NCBI GenBank assembly: GCA_000002445.1
Contig: CP000068.1
Location: 1,056,001-1,120,000 of the forward strand
Reading direction: 5' to 3'
Source of the DNA: Trypanosoma brucei
Lineage: Eukaryota
DNA: 64,000 bases
Shown here piece after piece: positions 1 through 52,131 of the stretch. Numbering within the stretch: position 1 is the first letter of the stretch; the number at the start of each line of letters is the position of its first letter. The notes under the pieces are model-generated. The model ran no database searches and was not told the DNA's origin. It was given only the letters and a program-made list of their open reading frames with translations. A program made the position numbers and the translations under genes.

Positions 1-3000
1 CGCAGCAACTCGGATACCATGGTAATGCGCATCGCCGAAGGTAAGAAATAGAGAAGGAGCTGCTCAGCATTTGCGATAAATTGTGGTGTGAACGGAACCA
101 GCGATTTCACAACGCGGTGGATCAAGGAGGGAGAAACGCCCAAGAAGATCAACCAGACGACCACAAGGACTGTCAAAAGAGATGCATCTCCCTGCAGCAA
201 CTCCCTTGCTTTAGCATCAAATGGAAGAATCAATACAGCGTCCTGCAGAAAATTGTTCGGCATCGATATAGCTGATTCTAGCATTATCAGCGCGACAGCC
301 AATGTTGCGCTTTGAAGAGAATCTGTGGTATTGGAAGTTTGGTAATCCACGGCATGTACAGCTGCTTCTTTGAGTAGGTTGTTGAATTCAACGTCTTTAA
401 TAGTCACCCTGCGAAGAACACTATCGAGTACCCGAAGAACCATGCGCGTGCTCCACGTCACACCAAAATTGGAGGTACCAGCACCTTCAAAAACAAGCCG
501 ACTTAGGGAATCACACAATCTTTGTAGTTTAAACATACATTTTTCCTTGTGAGAAGACTCCCCCCAAGCAGCGCACGTTCCTGTCGCCTTCGCGACAAGT
601 TGAATCAGGAAACGCACGTGTTCTGTATGTATGAAAGAAATTGAAGAGCCTCCCACTTCAATTTTGTTCACCTCCGCGGTGCGTGCGAGCGGAAGAATCC
701 AAGCGGAAAGTAGTTTGACATACGAGAACACATATTCAGCTGCCTTATGTGCCATACATGCAAATGTTCCCTCAACTGTAGCACTCAAGCTACCACTAGG
801 GTGCCCACCAACCGCCAACTGCAACAACGACTGCCGAGCGTAGAAACCAGAAAGAATTCCTTGTAAAGATACCGCACCGTACACAACTGTTGAGTAGGAT
901 GCGGTAAAGTCAGCACTGTCGAGAGGACAGGTTGGTAATTCACGAAGTTGTTGCAGCATCAAGGCAGCACCAGAGAGAAATGCAGAAAGTGACGGGTGCT
1001 TTCCAAAATGTCGGCAAAGCGTGTAAATGATGGCATCAAAAGAGCATGGAAGTAATTCTCTACGAAGTGAGTGCACGTAGGAGGTTTCACTTACACCTTC
1101 TCCCAGTTTGTGTATCATATGCAGACGATGGCACGTTTCATCAAGCGCTTTCGTCACCACATCTTTCAAAAGCGAGTCTACCGCTTCGATAGCTGCTGCG
1201 TTGTTTTCAGCGACAAACAACGAGGGACAAAACGGCGAGAGATTACTGCCTTTCCGGGCAGGAAACTTACGCCCGACAGAGCACCCCGCTAACGAATAAT
1301 GTAGTACCTTAAGCCAAAACAAACTGGCAACTGGCACAACATCACCGAATTGTTGCTGTAACTCTTCCACATGCACTATCAAAACCTCAACGAGTCCTGA
1401 AAAGGATGCCTCCTCGGAAGGTGCCTCCGACCCTGCACAACTCTCACTAGTAACCTCGGGAGGAATCGACAAAAGCACTCCAACGAAACTCGATATATCT
1501 CGCAGAAACCGGGTGTGGCTTTTAACCAAGTGGTCAAGTAAGATATGAAGCACAGAGAGCGCACGGTGCCGCATCCCCCGTTTCATAGTGCAGGTGAAAA
1601 TCGGAGTGATAGTCGTGTGATAACCTTTGTCATTGTAGAAAGGAATGCCAGACGTTATTCGGATATTGCCTCCGTTAGAATCCCACGTTGCTGCGCTCCT
1701 AAGGCTGAAAAGCACGACACAGACTCGTACAAACACGCTATTTTCTCCAGACGTGTTATGCTTCGAATCAAGATAAAGCGCCGAGTCGTGCATACTCAAC
1801 ACATCCAGCAAAACAGTTAGTAACCACGACGTTCCTTCATTCAGTGTGGCGTGGCCTCCATCCACTTCAACTACCTGCTCATCATTGAGACCCATCACAC
1901 ACAACTCCAGAAGTTTCAGCATGCTCTCCTCTGGAACTCGAAGACCCATCCGCCTCCTGCGAAACTCCCTGTAAGCGGAGGCCGCAGATTTCACATCATG
2001 GGTACGATGACACAAATCAAGCATATGCGTCAGTTCCGCTATCTCTGAATGTAGCTCCGGTGACTTGTATATGAAGCTCCGGTTGAGTAAGAAATACGCC
2101 ATTTCCACGTCACCTCCACACCCCTGCAGCACCGTTTTCCAAATAAAGGTAAAATCCACCTCCTTGACAACAGGCACCGGCCAAACCTGAAGTGCTAGAA
2201 GTATAATATGTCTCACCTCGTGCAACACAAAACACCGTCGTTGTTGATCTTCTGCCGTACTTGCGTCCTTATTCTCCTCACACAAAGTGTCATCCCCGCC
2301 ACGCCTATTACATTCCTTTCCTTGATTAGCTCTTTCCTTGTAATGGTGGCCCTGCCCCCTATGGCGAGGATTTCGGTGCTCTAGATGCCTCACACGCCGC
2401 GCACACGCCGTCAACGCCGCTTGTGCGATCCCTCGACTTTGCTGGTGACCCAACGCCAACAACGCAATGCGTATGAAGGAAAGTGGAGCGTGTGCAAAAG
2501 CAAATGAAAACCCTGCTATGTCGTGACTACTCAGCAGCCTCGCTTCATACTGTGTGAACAGAGACACTGCGTCAACCCACTGTTGCTGCTGCTTCAGTGA
2601 ATCGACCGTTTCAAACAAGTCAATATGCTCACTCTCGCTCAACGGAAGCTTCTTTGCCGGTGTGACGCTTCGTTCAGTTGTGCCGCGGTAGCGTAAAGCA
2701 GCTTCACTAGCAGTTTCAACAACTTGCAAGGCCTCCCGCCACCGCGGAGGGGTTGTTTGTGAGACCAACACGTCCATAATATACACGAGAGTGGTGCTCT
2801 TGTTAGTCGAATTATTGACTGCCACCACTTCATTACAATCACCTGCTATCGGATTGTGACACGGTTTTTGAGCACAAATAGAAATAGTCGCTTCAGCGAA
2901 AAGGGCTAGAGATAGTTCCCACATCTTTTCGCTCGGTTCAGTGCCTTCGAGAATGTTGACCGCGAGCCCTGTTTTTTCATTTGGGGGAAAGACACCACTT

Positions 3001-5390
3001 TCGTGCACAAGAGCGGCGACAGCAACCCGGCACAATTGCCACCTTTCCTTCTTTTCTTTAGTTTTCATTTGAAGTCTCTTGTTTTTTGTCAACCTTAGCA
3101 TATGCTCCAGCAACCCCTTTACGCGATAGTCCGCTATGGACTTAACGAGTGTGCCCAGCGTGGCAGTGATGTCGGGCACGGAGACTGAGTTTCTTTCCAT
3201 GTGAGTATGCGCAAGCATGGAAGCTAAATCGTTTACACTCTCTTGACGCTTCAGCACTTCTGATAGCCCGGGGACTACAACCGAGGAGTCAGACCCCATG
3301 CGAAATTGAGTGGGATTGTCATCTCGATGTTGGTGGTAAAAACAACCACCCTCTCTGAGAGAGACACCACAAATATCCACGGTAAACCGTCTGCTGAGAA
3401 ACTCCACTAGTTGCTGTATTTGCTTCATGGATTCGTCACTGACAGGAGATAGATCTTCCGTAATAATGTCATCGTCAACGTTAACGTGTGGGTCCCGCTT
3501 ACGGTTGCGACGGTTTTTATTTGTCGACTCATCGCCGCTTTGGGAAACCACCCGGGTCTTTCCTGCTTCACTTTCTCTATGTATGCGGTCCACGTAATTA
3601 TCGGCACCGAACCACATTGCCAACGCTGACGTCTCAGCAAAAAGCTCTCGTAGAAGCTCTTGCCAAGCGATGCATACACGCAGTTCATCCCCTTGTGCTT
3701 CTTTTTGGACATGGCGAAGAAACAAAGTGCTATTTGGAAAAAACACATCAGTCCAAAATTTTCTCCGCATCGCCGTACGAACAGAATTTGCGTCGAAAGA
3801 AAGTGAATCGGCAGAGCACTTTGAAACATCGCCGAAAGTGGGTTGCCGAATAACCCGGCATCCATCGATAACACGACAACTATTAACGCATGCGGTCATA
3901 ATTGTTCGGACGGTATCGACAACAACCCCAACGATAGCATCTCTCATTTCAACCTCGTGCTCATGAGTAAGGGCAGCAATCACAAGAGCGCCGTGCGACA
4001 TCAACAGCTGCAATACACGCTGCGCGTACTTGAGTTCAGAGTTGTCCAGCAGGCACACTGAGCAATCCTTCTCCCCATCCCCACCGTCCAGTAGCACTAA
4101 ACGTGCCGAAGCACACAACCGTATCAATGTGGTGGCATCCTCCTGCAAATGCTTCTCCTCGCTCTTCCGGGGTAGCAGATGTGGGGAGCACCGGAACTCA
4201 AACTGTCGCCTCCGCTGCTCAACCTTCAAAATAACCAAGTTAAGAACTGCCCTCCATTTCAATAGTTCTGTGTCGACTGCTGCACCCCAGTTTTCTCTTA
4301 GCTGTGCACACCACAAGAGTAAGTTCGCCGCATTGCACTCGAGGAAATGTGAGGGTGCCGTATCATCCCTTTTAACATCTTTTCCCTCACTCATTATGTA
4401 AGTGGGTAGATCGCGAATTACACAACCGTCAAGCATCTGTTCCAAAGCGATTTGAAGAACGTGTTCCATTGCTTGGGGCCGAAGGTTAGCGTTGTTGGCG
4501 ACCGCAGATATCAGTGAGTTTAAACTACAGCGCTCTGTCAGGTTATCGCAAACTCCGTTTCCCTCTACTCCTACCTCCCTTGGTGTGCCTTCGTGGTACG
4601 TGCAAACACGCAGTAACGTATATACTGCATCTTCCCACGATGAGGTGAAGCAGTCTGACATCTGCCCCTGTAACTTCAGCCAATGGGACTTATTACCAGG
4701 ACCATCGGCCTGATCTGAAGGTTCAAACACATCACGCACGCCAAGAAGCAGTTCAACTTGAATTACTCGAGTTTTCGTGTGTGGTCCTAAATTACACAAA
4801 TCAACAGCGCGAACTGACGAGTGCTCCTCCGTAAGTGATGCATTTGCCAGGAGAATATTCCTTGCGAACATTAACTGTTCCCTTCGCTTATCAGTCTCGA
4901 ATGTTGAAAATTCGTTAGAGTTACTACTTTGTCCACTCCCATGCTGTTGCCAGCTGTCCATAGCACGCAGAGCACTACGTACAATATCAGGCTCAAGCTG
5001 CAGCCTTTGTTCAGTGGCGTGTCGCACAAGCATCACCACCGCTCGCCAGCTCCCCATGCTGATAACGGCCTCTGACGCAAGAGCGGCGCCAAGCAGTACG
5101 TTACACAAATCCTCATCATCTTTTTTAATATCAGTAGTCACTGCACCAGTGCCCGCAGTTGTGGGGGTAGTTTTTTCATTCACTGCGATGAACTGACTAC
5201 TTAAACGGAGGACAAATTCCCACTGTCCGTTAGCTACTAAAAATGGGAAAAGTGTTTTGTATGGGAGGCTGCGAAGCGAGGTTCTGGCTTTCTCACACCC
5301 ACGGAGCACGCGTAAACAGGCGCGCCAGTCACCGCAATCAATATGTTTGGAAAAATATGTCGATAGAGAGTCACGTAGCCGTCCGGCCAT
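1..5390 (-). CDS. Large hypothetical protein, >=1796 aa inside the window, running off the window start (no stop within window)
   Basis: Manual minus-strand translation. A TAG at 5459-5457 is followed by the first ATG at 5390-5388. The frame was spot-checked open at about 4700, 4000, 3150, continuously through 2820-1320, at 620 and at 60-1. It is absent from the ORF track because it lacks an in-window stop. A T-run in minus sense lies at 5441-5460, and a polyY(-) tract at 5560-5760 sits upstream of the ATG. Confidence 0.7.
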   Translation of the reverse strand, partial: MAGRLRDSLSTYFSKHIDCGDWRACLRVLRGCEKARTSLRSLPYKTLFPFLVANGQWEFVLRLSSQFIAVNEKTTPTTAGTGAVTTDIKKDDEDLCNVLLGAALASEAVISMGSWRAVVMLVRHATEQRLQLEPDIVRSALRAMDSWQQHGSGQSSNSNEFSTFETDKRREQLMFARNILLANASLTEEHSSVRAVDLCNLGPHTKTRVIQVELLLGVRDVFEPSDQADGPGNKSHWLKLQGQMSDCFTSSWEDAVYTLLRVCTYHEGTPREVGVEGNGVCDNLTERCSLNSLISAVANNANLRPQAMEHVLQIALEQMLDGCVIRDLPTYIMSEGKDVKRDDTAPSHFLECNAANLLLWCAQLRENWGAAVDTELLKWRAVLNLVILKVEQRRRQFEFRCSPHLLPRKSEEKHLQEDATTLIRLCASARLVLLDGGDGEKDCSVCLLDNSELKYAQRVLQLLMSHGALVIAALTHEHEVEMRDAIVGVVVDTVRTIMTACVNSCRVIDGCRVIRQPTFGDVSKCSADSLSFDANSVRTAMRRKFWTDVFFPNSTLFLRHVQKEAQGDELRVCIAWQELLRELFAETSALAMWFGADNYVDRIHRESEAGKTRVVSQSGDESTNKNRRNRKRDPHVNVDDDIITEDLSPVSDESMKQIQQLVEFLSRRFTVDICGVSLREGGCFYHQHRDDNPTQFRMGSDSSVVVPGLSEVLKRQESVNDLASMLAHTHMERNSVSVPDITATLGTLVKSIADYRVKGLLEHMLRLTKNKRLQMKTKEKKERWQLCRVAVAALVHESGVFPPNEKTGLAVNILEGTEPSEKMWELSLALFAEATISICAQKPCHNPIAGDCNEVVAVNNSTNKSTTLVYIMDVLVSQTTPPRWREALQVVETASEAALRYRGTTERSVTPAKKLPLSESEHIDLFETVDSLKQQQQWVDAVSLFTQYEARLLSSHDIAGFSFAFAHAPLSFIRIALLALGHQQSRGIAQAALTACARRVRHLEHRNPRHRGQGHHYKERANQGKECNRRGGDDTLCEENKDASTAEDQQRRCFVLHEVRHIILLALQVWPVPVVKEVDFTFIWKTVLQGCGGDVEMAYFLLNRSFIYKSPELHSEIAELTHMLDLCHRTHDVKSAASAYREFRRRRMGLRVPEESMLKLLELCVMGLNDEQVVEVDGGHATLNEGTSWLLTVLLDVLSMHDSALYLDSKHNTSGENSVFVRVCVVLFSLRSAATWDSNGGNIRITSGIPFYNDKGYHTTITPIFTCTMKRGMRHRALSVLHILLDHLVKSHTRFLRDISSFVGVLLSIPPEVTSESCAGSEAPSEEASFSGLVEVLIVHVEELQQQFGDVVPVASLFWLKVLHYSLAGCSVGRKFPARKGSNLSPFCPSLFVAENNAAAIEAVDSLLKDVVTKALDETCHRLHMIHKLGEGVSETSYVHSLRRELLPCSFDAIIYTLCRHFGKHPSLSAFLSGAALMLQQLRELPTCPLDSADFTASYSTVVYGAVSLQGILSGFYARQSLLQLAVGGHPSGSLSATVEGTFACMAHKAAEYVFSYVKLLSAWILPLARTAEVNKIEVGGSSISFIHTEHVRFLIQLVAKATGTCAAWGESSHKEKCMFKLQRLCDSLSRLVFEGAGTSNFGVTWSTRMVLRVLDSVLRRVTIKDVEFNNLLKEAAVHAVDYQTSNTTDSLQSATLAVALIMLESAISMPNNFLQDAVLILPFDAKARELLQGDASLLTVLVVVWLIFLGVSPSLIHRVVKSLVPFTPQFIANAEQLLLYFLPSAMRITMVSELL

Positions 5391-16510: not shown

Positions 16511-16520
16511 CCCCCCCCCC
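16511..16520 (-). repeat. C10 on + strand = G10 in transcript sense, in the leader 65 nt upstream of the ATG of gene 16090..16446
   Basis: Read directly. Lies within a 1.7-kb gene-free interval downstream of SERCA. Confidence 0.95.
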
Positions 16521-32199: not shown

Positions 32200-32210
32200 C
32201 CCCCCCCCCC
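32200..32210 (-). repeat. C11 on + strand = G11 in transcript sense, ~90 nt upstream of the eIF2A-like gene ATG
   Basis: Read directly. Confidence 0.95.
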
Positions 32211-40815: not shown

Positions 40816-42576
40816 CTAAACGCAGTCATGTAGGAAATAAACACGCAACTCATCTTCGGTTGCTTCCACCGCCAGAAAGTACAACAGATAGGCCGCATCC
40901 ACAGAAACTTGTCGGGCCATGTTGCCTACGTGCCCTTCAGAGAGGGGTACCATTTCATTCTTCGGTCCGAAAGGGCATAGTAACGCATCCACTGGACAGT
41001 CAAATTCGCCTACGATGCCGTTACAAACAAGCTCTGCCCAACAAATAGCCCTCAACACAGCGGTAGGAACAAGACAAGTGTCTGGGCTAAACTTCCGACA
41101 TACTCGACTTACATATTTCAGTAACGACAGCATTGAGTTGGACGGGGCCCAAACACCAACAGTGCATCCGGGTTCGGTTAGGCGCCGGTGGTCCCAAACT
41201 ACGGTTCCTCGGGTAAGGACCCTACATAATTCATCGGCCGCCTTCACTGCCGTATGTACGTTGCCAGATACATCAAAAGCTTTGTGCCCCGCAACCGCAT
41301 CCTTATACGAGGTAAACAAGGACTCAAGCCACGACGCGCCTTTCTTTGAAGGTGGATAAGAGCCATCCGCTTTAGCCCAAGGTGAAAAACAATGACCGAG
41401 TGCAGTATTCAGACTCGACAGCCATGCGTCGCGTTCAGAGCCCAAATTTCCCACCTCCTCGTGTCGTAGATGCTCCAAAAGAACCTTTCGGAGCAAGCTC
41501 ATGCGACTTCGTATATCATCATTACTCGAAAATTTTGGTAAAAGTGAAGGAGTCGTGATGAAACCGTACCACAGAACAAGCTCCGCATCTGTGTACGAAC
41601 CATATTGCAGAAATACCTGATCTCCCTTCGATACAGGAGCTGTCGTCACAAATATGTACGCGCCCATACATCTGTCAAATCTCATAGTGGCATTATTTGT
41701 TAGTGAATGATTGAAATAATCGACCCATGGAATGACAGCCCAAACCTCAGGATCGTAAGAAAACCCACGGCTCATGAGGGTGTTATAAGCCCAAATAAAC
41801 TGTTGCATTGTAAACGGTGTTGCACACGACATCGTGCAGCCACCAGAAGGTTGCACCAAGGGAAGATGCAGCGAAAGAATTGACATCACGATATTGAACT
41901 CTTTTTCTAGCTGCATCCGTTCTTCCAGCACCTTTCTTCTGTGCCTCTCAAAACACAGAAAGTTACGAAGACACGCACCACCCCCTTCACAGTCATGTGA
42001 CCTTGCGACGCCCACACAAGTACTGTCCAGGTGCGTGTGTTCCAACAACTCAAGGAGGTTATCGTACTTGGTTGGTAGGGACAATAGCCACGTTCTCATC
42101 CAACGGTGTATGAAAAATGGCCCTAAATCTGCATTTCCGCCTCCAGTGGACACGGTAAACATAACTTCAGAGGCACTACCAGCTTTTTTATGGAAAGCAT
42201 TGTTACTAAACCGACCACATTGCCCTGCGGCAACGAGCAAAGAGAAGATAATCATGGAGCCTGGTGATAACATTTGGTCTAAATCCCCTAGGATATCCAC
42301 AGATGTCTCCCTTCTCGACCTCCCATCGAAGGGGGTCCAACCGAGACGCTCTTGCTTCTGCTGAGAAATCCAAAAATTAAGATGATTTCGAGCCTTCTGG
42401 GCGGTAATCATAGATGACTCTGGAATCTTTACTATCACTGTGTTCGACGGCAAATTTTCCGTGGCAATAACGCCGTGTCCACCACCCATTTGGTGGATTG
42501 GCAGTACGCCGATGGAAGGGTGGAAGAAAGCGCCTTCTTCCTGCAACATAAGTTGGATAAGCGACACGCTCTCCAT
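40816..42576 (-). CDS. SET-domain lysine methyltransferase (Rubisco-LSMT/SETD6-like); first gene of the minus-strand polycistronic unit
   Basis: WVDYFNHS...GDQVFLQYGSYTDAELVLWYGF. Track start 42756 is TTG, followed by 60 hydrophobic non-homologous residues. The first ATG at 42576-42574 gives MESVSLIQLML. Confidence 0.6.
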   Translation of the reverse strand: MESVSLIQLMLQEEGAFFHPSIGVLPIHQMGGGHGVIATENLPSNTVIVKIPESSMITAQKARNHLNFWISQQKQERLGWTPFDGRSRRETSVDILGDLDQMLSPGSMIIFSLLVAAGQCGRFSNNAFHKKAGSASEVMFTVSTGGGNADLGPFFIHRWMRTWLLSLPTKYDNLLELLEHTHLDSTCVGVARSHDCEGGGACLRNFLCFERHRRKVLEERMQLEKEFNIVMSILSLHLPLVQPSGGCTMSCATPFTMQQFIWAYNTLMSRGFSYDPEVWAVIPWVDYFNHSLTNNATMRFDRCMGAYIFVTTAPVSKGDQVFLQYGSYTDAELVLWYGFITTPSLLPKFSSNDDIRSRMSLLRKVLLEHLRHEEVGNLGSERDAWLSSLNTALGHCFSPWAKADGSYPPSKKGASWLESLFTSYKDAVAGHKAFDVSGNVHTAVKAADELCRVLTRGTVVWDHRRLTEPGCTVGVWAPSNSMLSLLKYVSRVCRKFSPDTCLVPTAVLRAICWAELVCNGIVGEFDCPVDALLCPFGPKNEMVPLSEGHVGNMARQVSVDAAYLLYFLAVEATEDELRVYFLHDCV

Positions 42577-43802
42577 GTTAACAGGACAAAAAGCTTCTAC
42601 CAATTTTACTACTGATACCAATTTCAGAACATAAAGCACACAATTGAAACTAATGGGGAAATAGAGATAGCTTATTACTCGCACATGGCACGAAACTAGA
42701 ACCAACAGCTGAGGAAGTCTAATGAACCAAACAATAAAATGAAGGTCCGGCAACAAAAAGGAACTTGGAGACCGAATATCGACAACAGATCATGGGGATG
42801 GAGAGGTTTAGCATACGCATGGAGAAAGCAAATACAGTTATCGGTGAGACGACACACAAAAACAAAGAAGCTAATATTACGTGGACGCAGGGCTGAAACA
42901 CCATTCAGAGCTGGTCTATACTGTCACCAACCCGCCAAAGCAGCAGCAAAGCAGTAAATATATACCTACGTACGTATATACTTGAAGATACCTATCTCCA
43001 GAATGGCAAAGACGATCCTCATACCCACATCGCCCCTCTACCGGACACACACACGCACACCCTGGGGTGGCATAAGCACATCTAAAAAGCATACCCAATA
43101 TGACATTTGGTGTTACAATTTTTGGCATGTCACGCGAGTGCACACATGTGCGAAGGTGAAAGCTTGCTTTACCCCCAAGTAAACAGAAGATGGTTGCCCA
43201 CCAAGTAAGCCTGCATACAACCCAGTGAGAGCGCGCAGTGCGCACCTTTGTAACAAAGTTTATTTGCACGATATGCGCAAGTAACAGGAAATTCCTAAAA
43301 ATATGTGGCGTATTTTTTGTAGTCGTATATGTAGGTTGTATCCCATAAAGCTGTCGTCCACCATGTTAATATACAATAGTCAAAAAACAAGAGGTTTCTG
43401 AATAGATGACATGGGATATGGTGTAAGCAAAGTAGTAAAGACGTTGGTACGCACCTAAACTCGCTGATCACGTGGGTAAGGTGAAGCACAAAGGTAAAAA
43501 AAATAACTCTGATCTCCACTTTAGCGACCTTCAGTATTCCCGACAGACCACCAATTACAATGCAGTTGCACTAGAATATCCCATATACACACTATTAAAT
43601 ATACCATCAACGTTTATTCATAATTTACAGTGTGCTGTGCCAAAAAAAAAATTTTGCTTACACTTTGTCGCAAACACATCTCGGTGGCATCACGTGTGCT
43701 AACACGGGGCAAGCAGTACGGTAGTGCAGCAATTTCTTCACCAATCTCTGTACTCGGTAAACTGGTCGAGGTACACCCCAGTCTCTTTTTTTTTACATAA
43801 TA

Positions 43803-43814
43803 GGGGGGGGGGGG
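43803..43814 (+). repeat. G12 homopolymer
   Basis: ggggggggggggg read directly from the sequence. Confidence 0.95.
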
Positions 43815-44224
43815 TAAAGGCTGCCTCAGTGGCGGTGCCACGCGAAAGAGATTGCCGAAGGATATTACCGATGGAATCTCTCCACCAGCGGGAGAATTAC
43901 CTTACAGTTTTCAACTAGAAAGGTGACAATAAAAAAAACGCACCTCGTTCACGATCCAATGAGCTTGTAAGTGTCACCGTAGTGTACATGTAGCGCCACC
44001 GCAACTACCAGCAGATAGACATATACGTGCATAAGTTACCCAACAATGCTACGTCTTCTCACAAGGCGCAGGCTGACCTCCCCCCGTCTATTTACCCAAT
44101 GCGCCAGACTTTTGCAACGCACAATCCCTCCTAGCACACCAGACAGCCCTTAATTCAGTATCAGCAAATTTGGACACGATAGTTCACAACCCCTCTGTCC
44201 TCTCAACCACACTTGTCCGGCTAC

Positions 44225-44294
44225 CGGCACGTGCGCGTCCCATTTTCGTGTACAGCCCCACTTTCCTTCAGCGTAACTGCACGCGCACGTGCCG
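44225..44294. repeat. 14-bp perfect inverted repeat (cggcacgtgcgcgt / acgcgcacgtgccg) with 42-nt spacer; each arm contains a CACGTG palindrome
   Basis: Arm 1 at 44225-44238. Arm 2 at 44281-44294 is its exact reverse complement. Confidence 0.9.
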
Positions 44295-44661
44295 CTCCCA
44301 CAACTAGGCAGATTAAAAGGCGGCTGAAAGACTCCTGGCAGTGAACCCCTACACACGTTGCGCCGCACCTGCTTGTTGGGCTCCCGCTCCTCGGCCCCTG
44401 TAGGACGGTGTGGCCACTGAAGCGTCCTCTGACTTCATTTACCCGGCGGAAGCGTCCTATCGATCATATTCTTTTACCTGTTAGCTCTCTTTCTCGGGCG
44501 CTTCCTCTTGAAATTTAGCCCTCCCCCTCCCCTTAGGGCTCGAGCGTATAGTTCACCGCCCAGAACGCATTGCCACCACGCCCTCCCAGCCTCTCGGCCA
44601 GTTCTTTTTTTTTTTTTTGCGTTGCCCTCTCCGACTCCTCGAAAGGCTTAATGTTTTCGCA

Positions 44662-44672
44662 GTCTCCATTCC
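44662..44672 (-). repeat. C11 on + strand (G11 in minus-unit sense), preceded by T14 at 44605-44618
   Basis: Read directly from the sequence. Confidence 0.95.
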
Positions 44673-46064
44673 CCCCCCCCCCGCTTTCAGGCCAGTGCTC
44701 CCCTAGCTAATTAAAGACGCTGCTTCTCCATACGTGGTGGTATCTTTCAAAGCGGATCTCCCCCACAACAGCCTGTGCACTTGGTATACAAACCCTTTCA
44801 TTGCCACAGTTGGCCCCAACATATTTCCCTTTTTGACGAGTGTAACAGCGCCTCGTAGGAAGGGTATTACCCCTCAAGGTTTTGTAACCACTCTCATTCT
44901 TCATATATCTTGTTTTCCCCCTGCGCAGCCATCTCCTGTAGGGCGTCTCCTCTCCTCGGTTCCCTCTCGTGAGCCGTGTGTGCGTGCGTGCATGTGTAAT
45001 AATGCGTTTTTGCAGCTCTTTAGAGGGGCTGAGAGTTTTAACATGCATCCGAAACGGCCCTCAACACACGCTCTGCGGTAGCACACCCGTTTAGATTTGC
45101 TCCTGCAAGGCAATACCCATCGACGACATTAGAAGTGGAGTCTGTTACCATCCGTGGTGCTGCTGGACTTGAGTTCGACATAATGACGTTTGCGGGTGGC
45201 CCTCCATTTCGGACTCCGTGTCATTGCGACACATCCCTCGCACATTTTCGCACCGTCCTTTGGTGGCCTCCACCGTGCCGAAGACCCTCTTGTGACTCCC
45301 TCCGTTTTAAATATTCTCGAGCTTTCTAGCGAGCACTGCTGTGTGGTACGATCAGCTCTGCAACCGGGCGGTGTGGGTGTATCCGGTTTTCATCTGCACG
45401 AGGAATCTTACACAACTATTTTCATTGTGGCTCCTTTCGATGACGGTATGTTCGACGCCCCCTTTTTTTTAAAATGTTGTGTTACGGATTCATGTCGGTG
45501 CAAATGTGATGTGGATCCTGCACTTAGGGGCGACGATGGTCGGTGGTGTTTGTGGAGCTCCCGTCTATCTGGGTCCCTTCACGGAATCTGTACCGTGTCG
45601 TGTTGAGATGGCCTCGCCGCCCCCTTTTAAGATCGGATAGAGGTAACAAGTGAATTGTCGGGTATTAGGGTTACTCTCTTCTTTTGCGTGGAAGTATATT
45701 CCCCACCCGATGCAGAAGTGACGGTTCTGTTTGCGGAACTGGTTGAATCAAAACATATCTTTGCCGGTCTTGATGGGTGCGGCAGCCTCTTGATATTTTA
45801 TTGTAGCCCGAGTAGAAGTGGAGCCGAGGTCCGCGGTAAGTTGTTGGCCGGTCATTGTTGTAGCGTATGGTGCGCCACGTGATCTATCGTTTTTTATTTC
45901 CCCCTCATTTTCTTCGTAGCCGTCATTTTTCCTTTTTTTAGTATTGTAGAAAAGATGTGTATGGATGGTAAATGACGGATCATTCCCCTCGTTAGAGGAA
46001 GCTACTTTACTAATGCTTTTGTTGCCTTAGTCAAACTGCTTGTCTAATGAAACCGTGCTAAACT

Positions 46065-46091
46065 GTGGTGTGTGTGTGTGGGGGGGGGGGG
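46065..46091 (+). promoter_or_regulatory. (GT)7-8 followed by G11, 345 nt upstream of SMC3 ATG in sense orientation; GT-rich/G-tract promoter-like element
   Basis: tgtggtgtgtgtgtgtgggggggggggg read directly. GT-rich elements and G-runs have been reported at trypanosome Pol II start regions. Confidence 0.5.
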
Positions 46092-46383
46092 AAGGCCGTG
46101 TGCCGCGCCTGCTAGCACACCACAGCAGGTAACCATGCGCGGACGTTGCTTACACCTTGGTAGCTTCACTATCATTTTGCTGCTTAATGGTACCGTTTGT
46201 TAATTACCTTCAAGCAATGAGATAACCTTCTTATTACTGTTTTGTTTAATGTTGTCTTTTGTTCCACATCCTAAGCTTCTACATCAGGAGAGTGGTGTAT
46301 GTTGTTGCGCTGACTTTGTACTTTCCCCCTTAGACTGCACGGTTGCCAACATGAAATAACCTGAACTGATTGTTTAACATTAC

Positions 46384-46418
46384 CGTTTGTTTTGTTTTTT
46401 GACTACCCTCTTTCTTAG
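46384..46418 (+). promoter_or_regulatory. Polypyrimidine tract + AG immediately upstream of SMC3 ATG (candidate trans-splice acceptor)
   Basis: tttgttttgttttttgactaccctctttcttag, with AG at 46417-46418 and the ATG at 46436. Confidence 0.55.
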
Positions 46419-46435
46419 ACCACTTACAGGATACT

Positions 46436-49400
46436 ATGTATATCAAAAATATTCTTATTTCCGGATTCCGCTCGTACCGAGAACAAGCGTTTGAGCAGGA
46501 GCTCTCGCCGAAAAACAACGTGATCGTTGGGAAAAACGGAGCAGGCAAGTCGAATTTCTTCGCTGCGATCCAGTTTGTTCTTTGTGAGAAATTTATGAAC
46601 CTTTCTTCTGTAGAGAGAAAGGATCTGTTCCACGTTGGATCCGGGAGGCCTGCGTTGCCCATCTTTGTGGAAATTATTTTTGATAATTCTGATGGTCGTC
46701 TTGTAATACCGGGAAAATCTGCTGTGAATGAAGTGCGTATACGGCGTACACTGGGCCTTAAGCAAGACGAATTTCGTGTAAATGACAAACGGTTCACGGC
46801 CACTGATATCCGGCAACTGCTGGAAAGCGCTGGGTTCTCGTCAACCAACCCTTACTATATTGTTGAGCAAGGCCAAATTTCAAGTTTGGCAAACATGAGT
46901 GATGAAGAACGGTTCCAACTTATAAAAGATGTGGCAGGTACGAGAGTTTATGAAGTAAGGCGAAAGGAGAGCGAGAAGATTTTGGAAGAAACGGAGGTGC
47001 AGCACGAGAAAATCGGGGAGTCTATTGCTCAACTCGAGGAGCGTCTTGAAGAGCTTCGGTCTGAGTCTGATGAACTCATGTCGTTCCAAGAGATTGACAA
47101 AAAAAGAAAGTGTGTTCAGTACTGTATCCTTAACTCAGACCTGAACGCTGCAAGAGAAGAACTTCGGAGGCTGGATGATGAGAGGAACTCTTACATGTCC
47201 CGCAGCGGAAGGGATCATTACGATATTGATGAAGCGAAAGCCATCATCAGTGAAGCTGAATCGGAGATACGTAATTGCGATCAGCGTATCTTGAGGTTGG
47301 AGGGGGAGCTACAGGACCTGGATACGAAAAGGGGCACATTGATGCGTGAAAAAGAGATTGTGCAATTAAATTGTATGTCATCTCTCAACACGATGAAAAG
47401 AACAGAGAGTGTGAAAACGAACGTTCTGAAGAGGGTTGGAGAACTGAACAAACAGATAGCAGAGACGAATGCTGGCTTGAAGAAGAAGCTTGCTATCATA
47501 CAACAGGAGCAGCTTACTGTTGATCAGAAAAGTGAGGAACTGTCCGCCATAGAAGGAAAACTTAAGGCACTTGAAGCGAGACGGGCTCGTCAATTGCTTT
47601 TCAAGAACAAGCAAGAGCGGGACAACTGGCTTGCTGAAGAGTCTAATAGAAACAGAAAAACCATAGAGAATTATAAACATGAATTAAAGTTTACGTGTAG
47701 TGAGATACAGAAAGTTGAAAAGCAAATTGAGGATGAGGAAACTGAACAGAAAAATTGGGAGGAATCATTAAAGAAATCAGATTCAGTTATAACGGAGCTT
47801 AAATCAAAGTACGAAGAGACGATGGCCTTCAGGAATTCACTGAGCGTTAAAAAGGGTGACCTCTGGAGAGAACAGTCTGCCCTTGTACAGACGGTTCGGA
47901 CACTACGCGAGAATCACAACAAAGCCCGCAGTCAACTCGAAAAAGTAATTCGCTCAGATGTTCGTCAAGGGTTGCAGTCTCTTAAAGAGGTTCTGGACGA
48001 GCTGGCCGACCCATCGCTAACAAATGCTGTACATGGCCAATTAATTGAGCTCATCGGCGTCTCGAACGGCTACGAGACAGCTGTTGAAGTGACAGCTGGT
48101 AATTCACTCTTTAACGTTGTTGTTGATTCATTCGAAGTTAGTGCGATTTTGCTGGAGAATATGAACAGCAGGAAGAAACCTGGACGTATATCATTTTTCC
48201 CAATGGATACGTGTAGGGGCACGGTGACACGGTTCGGTGAAGGTGTCGAGTGTAGCAGCTTGGCAGACCATATAATTTGTGATCCGAAGTTTGCTGGCAT
48301 TGTTGCCGAACTATTTGGAAATACTGCTGTTGTGACCTCCATTGCAGATGGTGAAAATGTTTCAAAAAAGTACGCATGTGACGCGGTAACGTTGGATGGG
48401 GATCAAGTCAGCCGGAGAGGTGGTATAACAGGTGGTTATATCGAATCTCGGAGTTTGAAACTCTCTGCTTTCAAGTATGAAAAGGTTGCTGCTGCAGATT
48501 TTTTAAGAGGAGATGAGGCCCTGAAGAAGATTACTCAGGAGTTGGACAACGTTAACCAGGCCTTAACAGGTGTTGTGACCACCCTTAGCTCGCTCAAGAC
48601 GGAGATGTCCTCCATAACGAAATCTAAAGACGGCTCACAAGTTGTCGAACAACATGCACAAAGAAAAGCAGCACTGGATAGGCAGAAGGATAAGTTATAC
48701 GCATCAAAGAAGCAGTTGGAGGACATGATAAATACTGCCCAAGTAAACATAGCCACCTACCAGCATGAGGGAAAAGAAGCGTTCAAATCGGCATGGAGCG
48801 AAGGTGAACAACGAGAGTTGGAGGCGCTGGTGAAAGATGTCGACGACCGCCGCATGAAACTCTCAAAACTTCAGCGGCGGAGTGCACAGTTGGCTGCGGA
48901 AGTGAGGGCCTTGGAGGATATGCGGCTTAACTTAAACGTCCAACTCACGGCTACTAAAAAGTTCTTTCACGATTCCGCTCAACTCAGTGCAAGTAATACC
49001 GCTATTACTAATGAAAAAGAAAATCTTGACGATGATATTTCTTTTAACTCGCAGCAAGCCAACGAAGTCTACAGGTTATTGGATGAGACCAGGAAAGAGA
49101 AACTTCGCAGGGAGGAAGAAGTCGAGAAGCTTAGGAGTGGCTACCTTGAGGCTCTGAATTCTATTCAGGAAAGAAGAGATTTCGACGGAAGGACTCTAAT
49201 GCAGCAGGCACATTGCATTAGACGTCGTGATGGCGCGGCGGAGAAGATAAGGCAACTGGGCGTAATACCCAAGGAAGCTGAGACATATTCTGGGTTGTCC
49301 AGAGAAAAACTAATACAAACACTCAAAGAGTGCAATAAAGCTGCTGAGAAATATGCACATATAAACCGAAAGGCAGTTGATCAGTACAATACATTAATGG

Positions 49401-50035
49401 AAACGAAAAACGGTCTTGTCGCCCAGAAAGAGGATCTTCAGAATGAACTGAAGAGTATTCGTGACTTAATGGACCACCTCGACTGCAAAAAGGATGAAGC
49501 AGTTGAGCGGACATACAAGCAAATTCAGTTGCACTTTGAGCAAGTTTTCAAAGAGTTAGTTACGACCGATGACTGTTACGGTAAACTTCAACTCATCATG
49601 TCAAACACCAGAAAAGAGGCAGGTGAGGATCCGTATGTTGCTGTTCAGATAAAAGTTTCTTTCGGACTAGGAGCTGCCGTCACTGACCTGAAACAACTGA
49701 GTGGTGGACAAAAATCACTTGTGGCGCTGGCGTTGATTTTTGCTATTCAGCGCTGTGATCCTGCACCATTTTATCTTTTCGATGAAATCGATGCTGCCCT
49801 CGATACTGAGTATCGGGCGTCTGTAGCGAAGCTTCTTTCTAAAGAATCAGGGTCGTGCCAATTTATTACAGCAACATTCAAAAACGAAATGCTTGACGTG
49901 GCCGATCACGTGCTCGGTGTTTTCTTTCACAACAAAATAAGTCGTATTCAAGCAATTACGGTTGAAGAAGGTAACAAGCTTTTGAAACAAGCAGTTGTTG
50001 AGGAAAGAAAAAGAGTCCGTGAGCATGTTGAATGA
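46436..50035 (+). CDS. SMC3: Structural maintenance of chromosomes protein 3 (cohesin SMC3); first gene of the plus-strand polycistronic unit
   Basis: MYIKNILISGFRSYREQ..GKNGAGKSNFFAAIQFVL (Walker A), hinge, and the signature LSGGQKSLVALALIFAIQRCDPAPFYLFDEIDAALD. 1199 aa. ATG verified at 46436. polyY+AG lies 10-50 nt upstream. Confidence 0.9.
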   Translation: MYIKNILISGFRSYREQAFEQELSPKNNVIVGKNGAGKSNFFAAIQFVLCEKFMNLSSVERKDLFHVGSGRPALPIFVEIIFDNSDGRLVIPGKSAVNEVRIRRTLGLKQDEFRVNDKRFTATDIRQLLESAGFSSTNPYYIVEQGQISSLANMSDEERFQLIKDVAGTRVYEVRRKESEKILEETEVQHEKIGESIAQLEERLEELRSESDELMSFQEIDKKRKCVQYCILNSDLNAAREELRRLDDERNSYMSRSGRDHYDIDEAKAIISEAESEIRNCDQRILRLEGELQDLDTKRGTLMREKEIVQLNCMSSLNTMKRTESVKTNVLKRVGELNKQIAETNAGLKKKLAIIQQEQLTVDQKSEELSAIEGKLKALEARRARQLLFKNKQERDNWLAEESNRNRKTIENYKHELKFTCSEIQKVEKQIEDEETEQKNWEESLKKSDSVITELKSKYEETMAFRNSLSVKKGDLWREQSALVQTVRTLRENHNKARSQLEKVIRSDVRQGLQSLKEVLDELADPSLTNAVHGQLIELIGVSNGYETAVEVTAGNSLFNVVVDSFEVSAILLENMNSRKKPGRISFFPMDTCRGTVTRFGEGVECSSLADHIICDPKFAGIVAELFGNTAVVTSIADGENVSKKYACDAVTLDGDQVSRRGGITGGYIESRSLKLSAFKYEKVAAADFLRGDEALKKITQELDNVNQALTGVVTTLSSLKTEMSSITKSKDGSQVVEQHAQRKAALDRQKDKLYASKKQLEDMINTAQVNIATYQHEGKEAFKSAWSEGEQRELEALVKDVDDRRMKLSKLQRRSAQLAAEVRALEDMRLNLNVQLTATKKFFHDSAQLSASNTAITNEKENLDDDISFNSQQANEVYRLLDETRKEKLRREEEVEKLRSGYLEALNSIQERRDFDGRTLMQQAHCIRRRDGAAEKIRQLGVIPKEAETYSGLSREKLIQTLKECNKAAEKYAHINRKAVDQYNTLMETKNGLVAQKEDLQNELKSIRDLMDHLDCKKDEAVERTYKQIQLHFEQVFKELVTTDDCYGKLQLIMSNTRKEAGEDPYVAVQIKVSFGLGAAVTDLKQLSGGQKSLVALALIFAIQRCDPAPFYLFDEIDAALDTEYRASVAKLLSKESGSCQFITATFKNEMLDVADHVLGVFFHNKISRIQAITVEEGNKLLKQAVVEERKRVREHVE

Positions 50036-52060
50036 TGTCGATAATTTTTTTTATTATTTAGGTGCTAGGGCATGTGGGGAGGAAAGGTTACTTATTATTT
50101 TCATTTTCTATCTACGCCATTTGGATGACAGAGGGTTCGCTGTTCCGTTACACTGAGCAAAAATGTAACGCAACGTTTTACATACGAGTATGGCTTGATG
50201 TATAGAACATTTTTTTCTTAACGGCATTTCTTTACATATGGTAACAGTAGTTTTACTTGGGTAACATATTTCCACTTCCTCTACCTGACCAATTTACTTA
50301 GCATCCTATATACTAGAAAGGCATATAATATGTAGTGTCGGTTCTTGTGCATTGGAAAAAGAGGGCGGCTACACGGTCTTTGCTTTGTGCAAAACTTGTT
50401 GTTACCCTACGGGAGTTTTTCCTTTGAAAACCGTTTGTATACCCTCAATTTGAAGTTTTTCAGCGTCTTTATGCCTGTACGAGCGGGGTAACTTCGTGAA
50501 GCTGCGACCCCTTGAATACGTCTCTGACTCGCTGAAACACACTAGCGTGTGGCAAAGGGCATATTCTTTGTTTCGGGAGGTTTCTGGCTTGTTACTGTGT
50601 GGTCGACTTATGTGTGTTGCTCACGTGGCTGACAAGACAGAATCGATAGACGACAAGTAAGCGCCACCACTACAGAAGACTGTCACAGAATTTGGTGCAG
50701 GAAATGACTGTTACAGTTGTTTGAATTCCCCTCATGCTTTGCAGCAGCGCCTAATCTACCGCTGATTTAACGTGCAGTGCTACACCACGCCTCCCACAAT
50801 GTACGACCTACAAAGTGAACGGGTACAACTCCCTGCCAGGAACGGGCGGCGTTAAGGCGGCAATACAGAAAAGACCACTGTTATCACGTAGGCAAATATT
50901 TTTTTTTTTATGTTCATCGACATGTAGTCGTACATAAAACGAAATGACTTATTGTGACATTAACCACTCCACTTACATGTTAATATAATATTCGTTTTTA
51001 ATATTTTCTCTGCACGTCAGCCCGACCTGTGAGCTGACGCCAGCGGATAATCGTGTTCAAATTTAGCGTCACCGTATTATATATTAATATGTATATATTT
51101 GTGCAGAGCATAAAGCGACCCTGCACGTATATCGGCTTTCTAATGTTAAAATAAGTATTCGAGAAGGCGGGACAGTTACTACACTACGATCATGTGACTG
51201 CAAGGTCGCTTCACCGCCATTGTAAAAATGACCGTATACTGGAGAGTAAAAATCCAGATGAAATGTTGTCGCTCCGAGTGCGGGTCAAACAATTTCTTCA
51301 GGTTTTGTATAAGTGGCGACATTCGAGTAGAAGTTGATGAGCATACTTAAACCCAAGATTCATAATTGGCATTTCACTTGCAGACAGTGAAGTAGTTATT
51401 TTTTTCGGCAACAACTGATTGTCCTCGGCGTTTCATTGTCATCTCAGCTATTATTTTCAACCATCTTTTTAGCCAGCGGTTTGAATACATTTTCGGCAGT
51501 GCTCGTTCGTATCGCTGTACACTCATCCTCTCTCTTTCCCTCTAGATATATGTCCAAACTGTTAGGAGGGAGCAGTCTATCAAGGGATGGAGGAGTGAAG
51601 GAGGTTTTGATGTGGTGCAAAAGGTGGAGAGAAATGAGAAACTATTCCAACTATCCTCTTTCCTTTTTTCTTTTCTTTCTTTTTTTTTTTGTCTTCTCTG
51701 AGTGGAGGTATGAATCGTTTACTTTGGTTGCTTTGAACTTTTCTCCATTTGAAGGAGTATGTTACTCAAAGTGTCGCATCTCTACACTTTCACAAATTGT
51801 ATACATATCCTCTCTCTTTTCTTGAAAACTTCTGTCCATGAATTAACTGTGATTCCTCTTATAGCGTTTTTACGCGTAAAGGAACCATTGTTCCCTTCAG
51901 GTGCACCACAGATAATAGCACAGCGGCGCCAACAACCAGCTGCACGTGAAGTATCGTTTAGTTGCATATTTTATTGGTTAGGTTTCTTGCATATTTCACG
52001 TGTTACTCATTTTTAAAATGTTTTGTATGTTTCTTTAGTGTTGGGAACGAACGTGCCAAC

Positions 52061-52111
52061 TTTTTTTTTTTTTACCTGACAACTTTTTTATTTAATTTTG
52101 CTTTTTCTTAG
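52061..52111 (+). promoter_or_regulatory. Polypyrimidine tract (T13 then T/C-rich) ending in AG: candidate trans-splice acceptor for the TGT-like gene
   Basis: T13 at 52061-52073. AG at 52110-52111. The ATG is 21 nt downstream. Confidence 0.6.
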
Positions 52112-52131
52112 AGGTGGCAGCAAATAGTGGA

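What the first reader, a model, noticed from the sequence alone, without database searches (positions are those of the whole stretch)
42577..46435. Divergent strand-switch region with oriented G-tracts, GT-repeats and a GC-rich island: likely bidirectional Pol II start zone
Gene orientation flips exactly here. Eighteen minus-strand genes lie to the left and seven plus-strand genes to the right. The 3.9-kb gap has no credible ORF. It contains G12 (+) at 43803-43814, T14 at 44605-44618, C11 at 44662-44672 (G11 in minus sense), and (GT)nG11 at 46065-46091 in plus sense. An AC-rich stretch at 43035-43055 is GT-rich in minus sense. The interval about 44150-45700 is unusually GC-rich against the AT-rich intergenic background. 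In trypanosomes Pol II initiates in such regions. They are marked by H2A.Z/H2B.V and H4K10ac, and G-runs and GT-rich elements have been implicated there.
Basis: partly seen in the sequence, partly recalled or inferred. Interest (0 to 1): 0.6.

Follow-up and report, generated by a model that had tools for sequence, protein, structure and literature searches.

The report
Known trypanosome divergent transcription start region

Summary
The window is T. brucei TREU927 chromosome 5 (window position = Tb927_05_v4 position minus 1,056,000). The finding is the strand-switch region between the SET-domain gene Tb927.5.3500 (minus strand) and SMC3, Tb927.5.3510 (plus strand).

The described features are real. 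There are 18 minus-strand and 7 plus-strand genes, three G/C12 tracts, a T14, a (GT)6, an (AC)5 and a GC-rich island. The C-run is misplaced by about 10 nt: it is C12 at 44671-44682.

Kolev et al. 2010 (Table S14) already list both flanking units as "Divergent" putative Pol II units. G10 and (GT)nGn 10-mers are the top coding-strand-enriched words at T. brucei start regions (Wedel et al. 2017).

The gap is not empty. Published trans-spliced, polyadenylated transcripts fill 42767-43397 (minus, Tb5.NT.76) and 44929-46315 (plus, Tb5.NT.79). The transcription that yields them must therefore start inside a 1.53-kb core, 43398-44928. The (GT)6G12 and the AC-rich stretch lie inside those transcripts.

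The window-wide G+T skew minimum falls at 44821.

Verdict: interpretation supported, already known, low interest.

The parts
40819..42576 (-). CDS of Tb927.5.3500, a SET-domain protein and the first annotated gene of the minus-strand unit. Its trans-splice site is at 42649 and its 5'UTR is 73 nt.
   Evidence: ORF. Pfam SET, E 1.6e-11. 100% identical to a TREU927 protein. Splice site from Kolev Table S12. CT at 42650-42651 is AG on the minus strand.
42767..43397 (-). Tb5.NT.76, a published trans-spliced, polyadenylated transcript of 630 nt at about 1 RNA per cell. It has no long ORF (at most 70 aa) and is the true first cistron of the minus-strand unit. It contains the (AC)5 / AC-rich stretch at 43045-43054.
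   Evidence: Kolev Tables S7 and S12. AG checks at 43351-52 and 43398-99, read as CT on the plus strand. ORFs.
43398..44928 (.). Core of the strand-switch region, 1,531 bp, between the outermost mapped splice acceptors of the two strands. The transcription that yields Tb5.NT.76 and Tb5.NT.79 must start here.
   Evidence: Inference from the splice-site positions. GC 0.496, GC skew -0.20.
43803..43814 (+). G12 tract, preceded by T9 at 43786-43794. It reads as G on the plus strand but sits on the minus-unit side of the core, 405 bp from the first minus-strand splice site. It is G13 in T. b. gambiense.
44225..44294 (.). Perfect 14-nt inverted repeat, CGGCACGTGCGCGT / ACGCGCACGTGCCG, with a 42-nt spacer. 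It lies almost midway between the two core G12 tracts.
   Evidence: DNA fold z = -4.4. GCACGTGC occurs only at these two places in the 64 kb.
44605..44618 (+). T14 tract (A14 in minus sense). It is T13 in T. b. gambiense.
44671..44682 (-). C12 on the plus strand, equal to G12 on the minus (coding) strand of the leftward unit. It lies 1.27 kb upstream of the first minus-strand splice site and 247 bp from the first plus-strand splice site. It is 11 nt long in T. b. gambiense.
44821..44821 (.). Global minimum of the cumulative (G+T)-(A+C) skew of the whole 64-kb window. This is the compositional switch point between the two units.
44150..45700 (.). GC-rich island (GC 0.525). It is C- and T-rich on the plus strand up to about 45300. 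It spans the right half of the core and the 5' half of Tb5.NT.79.
44929..46315 (+). Tb5.NT.79, a published trans-spliced, polyadenylated transcript of 1,386 nt at about 0.7 RNA per cell. Its longest ATG-ORF is 52 aa. It is the true first cistron of the plus-strand unit.
   Evidence: Kolev Tables S7 and S12. AG at 44927-44928 preceded by a pyrimidine tract. ORFs.
46068..46091 (+). (GT)6 followed by G12, on the coding strand of the plus-strand unit. It matches nine overlapping 10-mer positions from Wedel's start-region-enriched list. It lies inside Tb5.NT.79, 1.14 kb downstream of the first plus-strand splice site. The G-tract is G14 in T. b. gambiense.
46436..50035 (+). CDS of SMC3 (Tb927.5.3510), the first annotated gene of the plus-strand unit. 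Its trans-splice site is at 46419 and its 5'UTR is 17 nt.
   Evidence: 100% identical to TREU927 SMC3. Gene identifier. Splice site. AG at 46417-46418.

Best explanation
The interval is the divergent strand-switch region of T. brucei chromosome 5 (Tb927_05_v4 1,098,577-1,102,435). It lies between the polycistronic units Tb927.5.3500->3100 (leftward) and Tb927.5.3510->3990 (rightward).

RNA polymerase II starts here in both directions, without a focused promoter. The first processed product on each side is not the annotated gene but a low-abundance, spliced and polyadenylated, non-coding-looking RNA: Tb5.NT.76 leftward and Tb5.NT.79 rightward. Their polyadenylation sites lie 118 and 104 nt upstream of the splice sites of the SET and SMC3 mRNAs. 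This fits the known coupling of upstream polyadenylation to downstream trans-splicing.

Because a spliced RNA needs precursor upstream of its acceptor, the initiation that yields these two RNAs must lie in the 1.53-kb core 43398-44928. The core holds G12 (plus), T14 and G12 (minus), and the G+T skew of the whole window turns over in it, at 44821.

Shown here or in print: the orientation flip, the published status as a start region, the splice and poly(A) sites, the composition switch, and the tracts.

Inferred: the coding-strand G-tracts and GT-rich sequence help to set direction and to recruit H2A.Z-type chromatin, as Wedel 2017 showed for synthetic GT-rich elements. Also inferred: further dispersed initiation occurs downstream, for example near the (GT)6G12.
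For: - Identity of the locus: SMC3 and the SET protein are 100% identical to TREU927 proteins on a 1,608,198-bp record. Tb927.5.3510 is SMC3.
- The coordinate offset was verified at five splice sites by the AG dinucleotide.
- Published status: Kolev 2010 Table S14 lists both units as 'Divergent'. The text says 5'-triphosphate reads were enriched at every divergent unit and at all sites with the Siegel 2009 marks.
- The novel transcripts are trans-spliced and polyadenylated.
- G10 and (GT)nGn words are the most coding-strand-biased 10-mers at the 5' ends of start regions. Plus-strand matches to that list peak in 46001-48000 (16, the highest count in the window). Minus-strand matches reach 13 in 42001-44000, equal highest.
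- G-tracts are far above chance: 12 matches against 0.07 expected.
- The skew minimum is at 44821.
- No tRNA or Rfam gene, so this is not a Pol III-adjacent start.
- The divergent SET/SMC3 arrangement is kept in T. cruzi and T. melophagium. In L. major SMC3 is the first called gene from one end of the chromosome 8 record, with nothing called in the 4 kb before it.
Against: - No ChIP or nascent-RNA track could be read at nucleotide level. The positions of the start sites inside the core are therefore inferred, not seen.
- The G12 at 43803 reads as G on the plus strand yet lies on the leftward side of the skew switch. It does not fit a simple 'G on the sense strand' rule unless the two initiation zones overlap by about 0.9 kb.
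- The gap diverges about 3.5 times faster than the flanking CDS between T. b. brucei and T. b. gambiense (0.96% against 0.26-0.28%), and the tract lengths vary.
- The T. cruzi, T. melophagium and (partial) T. congolense counterparts have no G-tract of 10 or more. Sequence-specific function of these tracts is therefore not demonstrated.
Confidence: 0.9

Rival explanations
1. The region is a start region, but the G-tracts, GT repeats and T-runs are passive by-products. They would arise from slippage-prone simple sequence accumulating in unconstrained, nucleosome-poor DNA with strand-biased mutation. Start-site choice would be set by chromatin rather than by these sequences.
For: Tract lengths differ between T. 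b. brucei and T. b. gambiense: G12/13, C12/11, G12/14 and T14/13. The gap evolves about 3.5 times faster than the flanking CDS. The T. cruzi, T. melophagium and T. congolense counterparts lack long G-tracts, and there is no DNA-level conservation. Two further G-tracts of 10 or more lie on the coding strand in ordinary intergenic regions of the minus-strand unit, at 16511 and 32200, with no published start site there.
Against: Genome-wide, G10 is 132:17 coding versus non-coding at the 5' fifth of start regions. Synthetic promoters built from such 10-mers drive orientation-dependent reporter expression, and the paper reports that they promote targeted H2A.Z deposition.
Confidence: 0.35
2. Each unit starts at the peripheral elements next to its first annotated gene: (GT)6G12 for SMC3 and the AC-rich stretch for the SET gene. 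The roughly 3-kb centre of the gap would be silent. This is implied by the reader's choice of reporter fragments.
For: The (GT)6G12 is the best match in the window to Wedel's enriched 10-mers, with nine overlapping hits. Start regions are broad, so some initiation there is plausible.
Against: A spliced plus-strand transcript begins at 44929, 1.14 kb upstream of the (GT)6G12. A spliced minus-strand transcript begins at 43397, about 340 nt upstream (in minus sense) of the AC stretch. Both elements are inside transcripts.
Confidence: 0.05
3. The GC-rich island is the decayed remnant of a gene that once sat in the gap. In T. cruzi, T. melophagium, T. theileri and T. grayi a small conserved gene lies on the minus strand next to the SET gene; in T. 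cruzi and T. melophagium, where the locus was read, it lies between the SET gene and SMC3.
For: A profile of that family hits the stop-free minus-strand piece 45751-46026 at 14.3 bits, with two colinear motifs: SFTIHTHLF and YATTMTGQQLT. None of 200 dinucleotide shuffles reached this score (maximum 10.0). It is the best of 15 equal-sized chunks of the window; the next best score 11.5 and 10.1. The island's GC content equals that of coding sequence.
Against: T. brucei has an intact copy on chromosome 8, between an Exo_endo_phos gene and a JAB gene. T. vivax and L. infantum also have the gene just upstream of a JAB gene. That location is therefore probably ancestral, and the position in the gap in T. 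cruzi and its relatives is derived. The hit lacks the central 35 or so residues, is short, and lies mostly outside the GC island. No Pfam hit was found for any piece of the gap.
Confidence: 0.1
4. The region also, or mainly, serves as an ORC1/CDC6 binding site or replication origin. Many T. brucei transcription-unit boundaries do.
For: Only the general statement of Tiengwe et al. 2012 that replication initiation interacts with transcription-unit boundaries (abstract).
Against: Nothing about this locus appears in the held supplementary text of that paper. No sequence test for origins exists in trypanosomes.
Confidence: 0.15

Closest known systems
T. brucei divergent transcription start regions (Siegel et al. 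2009, from memory; Kolev et al. 2010, PMC2936537; Wedel et al. 2017, PMC5579346)
   Same: Back-to-back polycistronic units with no focused promoter. Long G-runs and GT-rich words lie on the coding strand at the 5' end. There is a G+T skew switch. The first products are low-abundance processed RNAs. This very locus is in Kolev's list.
   Different: Nothing essential differs. Local details: the distance between the outermost splice acceptors is short (1.5 kb). One G12 lies on the 'wrong' side of the switch. A perfect 14-nt inverted repeat sits midway between the two core G-tracts.
Sequence-specific strand-switch-region promoters of T. brucei (Cordon-Obras et al. 2022, Cell Rep 38:110221)
   Same: Citing papers describe two oppositely oriented, orientation-dependent core promoters inside a divergent strand-switch region.
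   Different: The paper is not held, so its motifs could not be scanned here. Whether this strand-switch region carries them is unknown.
Strand-switch region of Leishmania major chromosome 1 (Martinez-Calvillo et al. 2003, from memory)
   Same: Divergent Pol II initiation from a short region without a TATA box or other canonical elements, with homopolymer G/C tracts.
   Different: The Leishmania region is much shorter, with initiation within less than 100 bp. It is a different genus and there is no sequence similarity.
Dispersed / CpG-island promoters of animals
   Same: A GC-rich island, dispersed initiation, divergent transcripts including short-lived non-coding ones, and H2A.Z-marked chromatin (the comparison drawn by Wedel 2017).
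   Different: Here each start feeds a polycistronic array of dozens of genes. The RNAs are capped by trans-splicing. Initiation is reported as largely constitutive and has a 4:1 strand bias.

Membership tests
T. brucei divergent Pol II transcription start region | Two gene arrays pointing away from each other. | tested here: met
   All minus-strand ORFs lie left of 42576 and all plus-strand ORFs lie right of 46436. There are 18 and 7 annotated genes.
T. brucei divergent Pol II transcription start region | Experimental evidence of initiation (5'-triphosphate RNA ends) at the locus. | tested here: met
   By look-up of published data, not raw reads. Kolev 2010 Table S14 lists both units as 'Divergent', and the text says enrichment was seen at every divergent unit.
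T. brucei divergent Pol II transcription start region | Twin peaks of H2A.Z, H2B.V, H4K10ac and BDF3. | not testable with these tools
   No ChIP tracks are available here. Kolev states that the 5'-triphosphate enrichment was seen at all sites suspected to be Pol II promoters from the Siegel 2009 histone marks.
T. brucei divergent Pol II transcription start region | First splice acceptors face outward on both strands, with upstream poly(A) sites coupled to them. | tested here: met
   Splice sites at 43397/43350 and 42649 (minus strand) and at 44929 and 46419 (plus strand), all preceded by AG. Poly(A) sites at 42767 and 46315 lie 118 and 104 nt upstream of the next splice site.
GT-rich promoter class (Wedel 2017) | G-runs and GT-rich 10-mers enriched on the coding strand at the 5' end of the start region. 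| tested here: met
   (GT)6G12 on the plus strand at 46068-91 and G12 on the minus strand at 44671-82 are on the coding strands. Counts of listed 10-mers peak in the region, with 16 plus-strand and 13 minus-strand matches per 2 kb. The G12 on the plus strand at 43803 is ambiguous. The G+T skew minimum is at 44821.
GT-rich promoter class (Wedel 2017) | Drives orientation-dependent reporter expression and H2A.Z deposition. | not testable with these tools
   This needs transfection and ChIP.
Sequence-specific strand-switch-region core promoters (Cordon-Obras 2022) | The defined core promoter motifs of that paper. | not tested
Start region next to a Pol III gene (tRNA/snRNA-adjacent type of Kolev's Table S14) | A tRNA, snRNA or rRNA gene at the boundary. 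| tested here: not met
   ARAGORN found 0 genes. Rfam found 0 at gathering score. The only match below gathering score is SCARNA7 at 19.7 bits against a cut-off of 65.
Protein-coding gene or pseudogene in the gap | An ORF, or frame-consistent similarity to a known protein family. | tested here: inconclusive
   No Pfam hit for 14 pieces. The longest sense ATG-ORF in the transcripts is 70 aa. One weak hit of 14.3 bits to a small kinetoplastid family lies on the minus strand at 45751-46026, but synteny argues against it.

The most novel reading that the evidence does not exclude
The core may not be a featureless dispersed promoter. It could be a roughly dyad-symmetric unit: G12 (plus strand, 43803-14), then 410 nt, then a perfect 14-nt inverted repeat carrying GCACGTGC (44225-44294), then 376 nt, then G12 (minus strand, 44671-82). 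In this reading the inverted repeat or CACGTG element acts as a discrete factor-binding or cruciform boundary. The two crossed G-tracts would then launch overlapping, convergent-then-divergent initiation zones. A related word, TGGGCACGTG, is 6:1 coding-strand-enriched at start-region 5' ends in Wedel's list.
Probability: 0.06. Interest if true: 0.5.

Novelty: already known. Interest (0 to 1): 0.12.

Why it matters
As a discovery it matters little. The locus, its class and its sequence hallmarks have been in print since 2009-2017. It is useful as a validation: a reader with no tools recognised a trypanosome Pol II start region from sequence alone. The one practical refinement concerns promoter dissection at this locus. 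Any such work should target 43398-44928 rather than the fragments next to the annotated genes, because published splice sites show that both strands are already transcribed beyond that core.

Tried and rejected
- tRNA and Rfam scans of the window and a permissive Rfam scan of the gap found nothing.
- Pfam scans of 14 ORFs or stop-free pieces of the gap found nothing above threshold.
- Tandem repeats: only a trivial 13-nt array of 2.5 copies.
- DNA comparison of the gap with the T. cruzi, T. melophagium, L. major, T. vivax and T. congolense counterparts gave only low-complexity matches.
- The exact-protein look-up of TREU927 SMC3 failed because the TREU927 genome is not indexed. The locus was reached through T. 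b. gambiense instead.
- Pseudogene relic of the small gene found in this gap in T. cruzi and its relatives: pursued with two profiles, shuffles and real-sequence controls. It was downgraded after synteny showed the chromosome 8 context is shared by T. brucei, T. vivax and Leishmania.
- The 421-nt stretch with no difference between the two subspecies (44167-44586) is no longer than expected for 37 random differences, so it is not evidence of constraint (my calculation).
- Papers not held: Siegel 2009 and Cordon-Obras 2022.
- A search for 'guanine runs' found nothing.
- The 2026 G4 map has no held supplement.
- The supplement of the ORC/origin paper says nothing on this locus.
- The bacterial promoter/terminator scan was not used because it does not apply to trypanosomes.
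Full report
**Identity of the window.** The 1,199-aa ORF at 46436-50035 is 100% identical to SMC3 of Trypanosoma brucei brucei TREU927, on a record of 1,608,198 bp. The literature gives SMC3 the identifier Tb927.5.3510. The 586-aa minus-strand ORF ending at 42576 is a SET-domain protein, also 100% identical to a TREU927 protein. Kolev et al. 2010 (PMC2936537), Table S12, puts the main trans-splice site of Tb927.5.3510 at 1,102,419 with a 17-nt 5'UTR. It puts that of Tb927.5.3500 at 1,098,649 with a 73-nt 5'UTR. Both fit the two start codons if window position = Tb927_05_v4 position minus 1,056,000. I checked this offset in the sequence. An AG dinucleotide lies directly upstream of every mapped acceptor:
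- 46417-18 for the site at 46419;
- 44927-28 for the site at 44929;
- CT on the plus strand (AG on the minus strand) at 42650-51, 43351-52 and 43398-99 for the minus-strand sites.

**The observation.** The orientation flip is real. Tb927.5.3330, a 14-kb gene, runs off the left end of the window, and .3570 runs off the right end. G12 at 43803-14, T14 at 44605-18, (GT)6 plus G12 at 46068-91 and (AC)5 at 43045-54 are all present. The C-run is C12 at 44671-82, not C11 at 44662-72. G10 occurs 12 times, in five tracts, against 0.07 expected from shuffles, and three of the five tracts are in the gap. The island 44150-45700 has GC 0.525. That is above every other intergenic stretch (0.34-0.49; best 1.5-kb intergenic window outside the gap 0.449) and equals coding sequence. 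No convincing ORF exists and no Pfam domain is found.

**What it is.** Table S14 of Kolev et al. lists, for Tb927_05_v4, the units Tb927.5.3500->Tb927.5.3100 (minus) and Tb927.5.3510->Tb927.5.3990 (plus), both typed 'Divergent'. No tRNA or other Pol III gene is present, so it is the plain divergent type.

The gap is not empty.
- Kolev's Table S7 lists Tb5.NT.76 at 1,099,397->1,098,767 (minus strand, 630 nt, about 1 RNA per cell), which is window 43397-42767.
- It lists Tb5.NT.79 at 1,100,929->1,102,315 (plus strand, 1,386 nt, about 0.7 RNA per cell), which is window 44929-46315.
- The paper says such novel transcripts are trans-spliced and polyadenylated.
- Their 3' ends lie 118 and 104 nt upstream of the splice sites of the SET and SMC3 mRNAs. 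That is the usual coupling distance, so they are the true first cistrons of the two units.
- Their longest sense ATG-ORFs are 70 and 52 aa, with no homology found.
- The numbers NT.77 and NT.78 are absent from the held tables. They may be the SL-less start-site RNAs that the authors excluded, but that is only a guess.

It follows that the initiation producing these RNAs lies in the 1,531-bp core 43398-44928. The (GT)6G12 and the AC-rich stretch are inside transcripts. They are not upstream of the first transcribed sequence.

**Sequence signals against the literature.** Wedel et al. 2017 (PMC5579346) found three things:
- Initiation peaks at the 5' end of H2A.Z domains.
- It is about 4:1 strand-biased.
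- Synthetic promoters made of coding-strand-enriched 10-mers drive orientation-dependent expression. The abstract also reports targeted H2A.Z deposition.

Their Dataset EV1 is headed by GGGGGGGGGG, at 132 coding versus 17 non-coding in the 5' fifth of 199 start regions. It is followed by GTGTGTGTGG, GGTGTGTGTG, TGTGTGTGGG and GTGTGTGGGG. The element at 46066-46091 contains nine overlapping positions matching that list. Plus-strand hits peak in 46001-48000 (16, the highest count in the window). Minus-strand hits reach 13 in 42001-44000, equal highest. The cumulative (G+T)-(A+C) skew of the entire 64 kb has its minimum at 44821. That point is inside the core, 108 nt before the first plus-strand acceptor and 139 nt right of the minus-sense G12. 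Two of the three G-tracts thus sit on the coding strand of their unit. The third, on the plus strand at 43803, lies left of the switch. It fits only if the two initiation zones overlap by about 0.9 kb, or if it is one of the minority non-coding-strand tracts.

**Evolution.**
- In T. b. gambiense DAL972 the gap is 3,861 nt long and 99.0% identical (37 differing columns). The SET and SMC3 coding sequences diverge by only 0.28% and 0.26%.
- All four long tracts are kept but change length: G12->13, C12->11, G12->14 and T14->13.
- T. cruzi and T. melophagium keep the divergent SET/SMC3 arrangement. In L. major SMC3 is the first called gene, 4 kb from one end of the chromosome 8 record. A unit start upstream of SMC3 is therefore old.
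- The gap has no alignable DNA with these species or with the 1.1 kb available from T. congolense. None of them has a G-tract of 10 or more there.
- This leaves room for the view that the tracts are consequences of the start region rather than causes of it.

**A side trail.** T. cruzi and T. melophagium carry an extra small gene (173-199 aa) on the minus strand between the SET gene and SMC3. In T. theileri and T. grayi its locus tag adjoins that of the SET gene. A profile of this family gives a weak hit on the minus strand at 45751-46026, at 14.3 bits. None of 200 shuffles reached that score, and the next best real chunks of the window score 11.5 and 10.1. However, an exhaustive profile search found intact family members in T. 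brucei, T. congolense, T. vivax and Leishmania. In T. brucei, T. vivax and L. infantum the gene sits just upstream of a JAB gene, downstream of Nop52 and a kinase. That context is therefore probably ancestral, and the position in the gap in T. cruzi and its relatives is derived. I rate the relic reading at about 10%.

**Verdict.** The feature is an already known, published Pol II divergent start region. The useful refinement is the 1.5-kb core defined by published splice sites, together with the skew minimum at 44821. The only mildly unusual details are the crossed orientation of the two core G12 tracts and a perfect 14-nt inverted repeat carrying GCACGTGC midway between them. Their significance is untested.

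Noticed in passing
window 44225-44238 and 44281-44294: Perfect 14-nt inverted repeat CGGCACGTGCGCGT / ACGCGCACGTGCCG with a 42-nt spacer, in the GC-richest part of the core. The DNA hairpin folds at -20.6 kcal/mol (z = -4.4). GCACGTGC occurs nowhere else in the 64 kb. The repeat is unchanged in T. b. gambiense and lies nearly midway between the two core G12 tracts.
   Followed up: partly
window 45751-46026 (minus strand); L001 7309-7908; L002 6611-7165; L005, L007, L008 10001 onward: A small conserved kinetoplastid protein family (170-230 aa, no Pfam domain) lies just upstream of a JAB gene in T. brucei (chromosome 8), T. vivax and L. infantum. In T. cruzi and T. melophagium it lies in the SET/SMC3 strand-switch region, and in T. 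theileri and T. grayi its locus tag adjoins that of the SET gene. This looks like a lineage-specific relocation of a single gene into a strand-switch region. The T. brucei gap shows only a weak 14-bit match.
   Followed up: yes
L010 4495-4836 = window 44707-45048 (minus strand): The T. b. gambiense DAL972 annotation calls a 113-aa gene inside the gap. It has no Pfam domain (best match E 0.03, below the curated cut-off) and no homologue found. It overlaps the Tb5.NT.79 splice site in antisense. It is probably an over-call.
   Followed up: partly
window 43803-14, 44605-18, 44671-82, 46080-91 versus L010: All four long homopolymer tracts are length-polymorphic between T. b. brucei and T. b. gambiense (by +1, -1, -1 and +2 nt), while their positions are kept.
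   Followed up: yes
window 50036-52113; L001 14134-17688: T. cruzi and T. melophagium have a myosin gene between SMC3 and the TGT-like gene. T. brucei has none there. Its 2.1-kb spacer instead carries the published transcript Tb5.NT.80 (window 50302-52014, plus strand), whose longest complete ATG-ORF is 91 aa.
   Followed up: no
window 16511-16520 and 32200-32210: Two further C-tracts of 10 nt or more on the plus strand, equal to G-tracts on the coding strand of the minus-strand unit. Both are intergenic. No internal start site is listed there by Kolev 2010.
   Followed up: no
L004 1-4055: In L. major Friedlin, SMC3 is the first called gene, 4 kb from the start of the chromosome 8 record, and is transcribed away from that end. 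The unit start upstream of SMC3 is therefore conserved even where the divergent partner unit is absent.
   Followed up: partly
window 1-5390 (minus strand): The left end of the window is the 5' part of Tb927.5.3330, whose CDS is about 14 kb. The ORF lister does not show it because it runs off the window.
   Followed up: no
window 6717-36, 10922-45, 18073-98, 55046-83 and others: Several (AT)n microsatellites of up to 38 nt lie in intergenic regions of both units.
   Followed up: no
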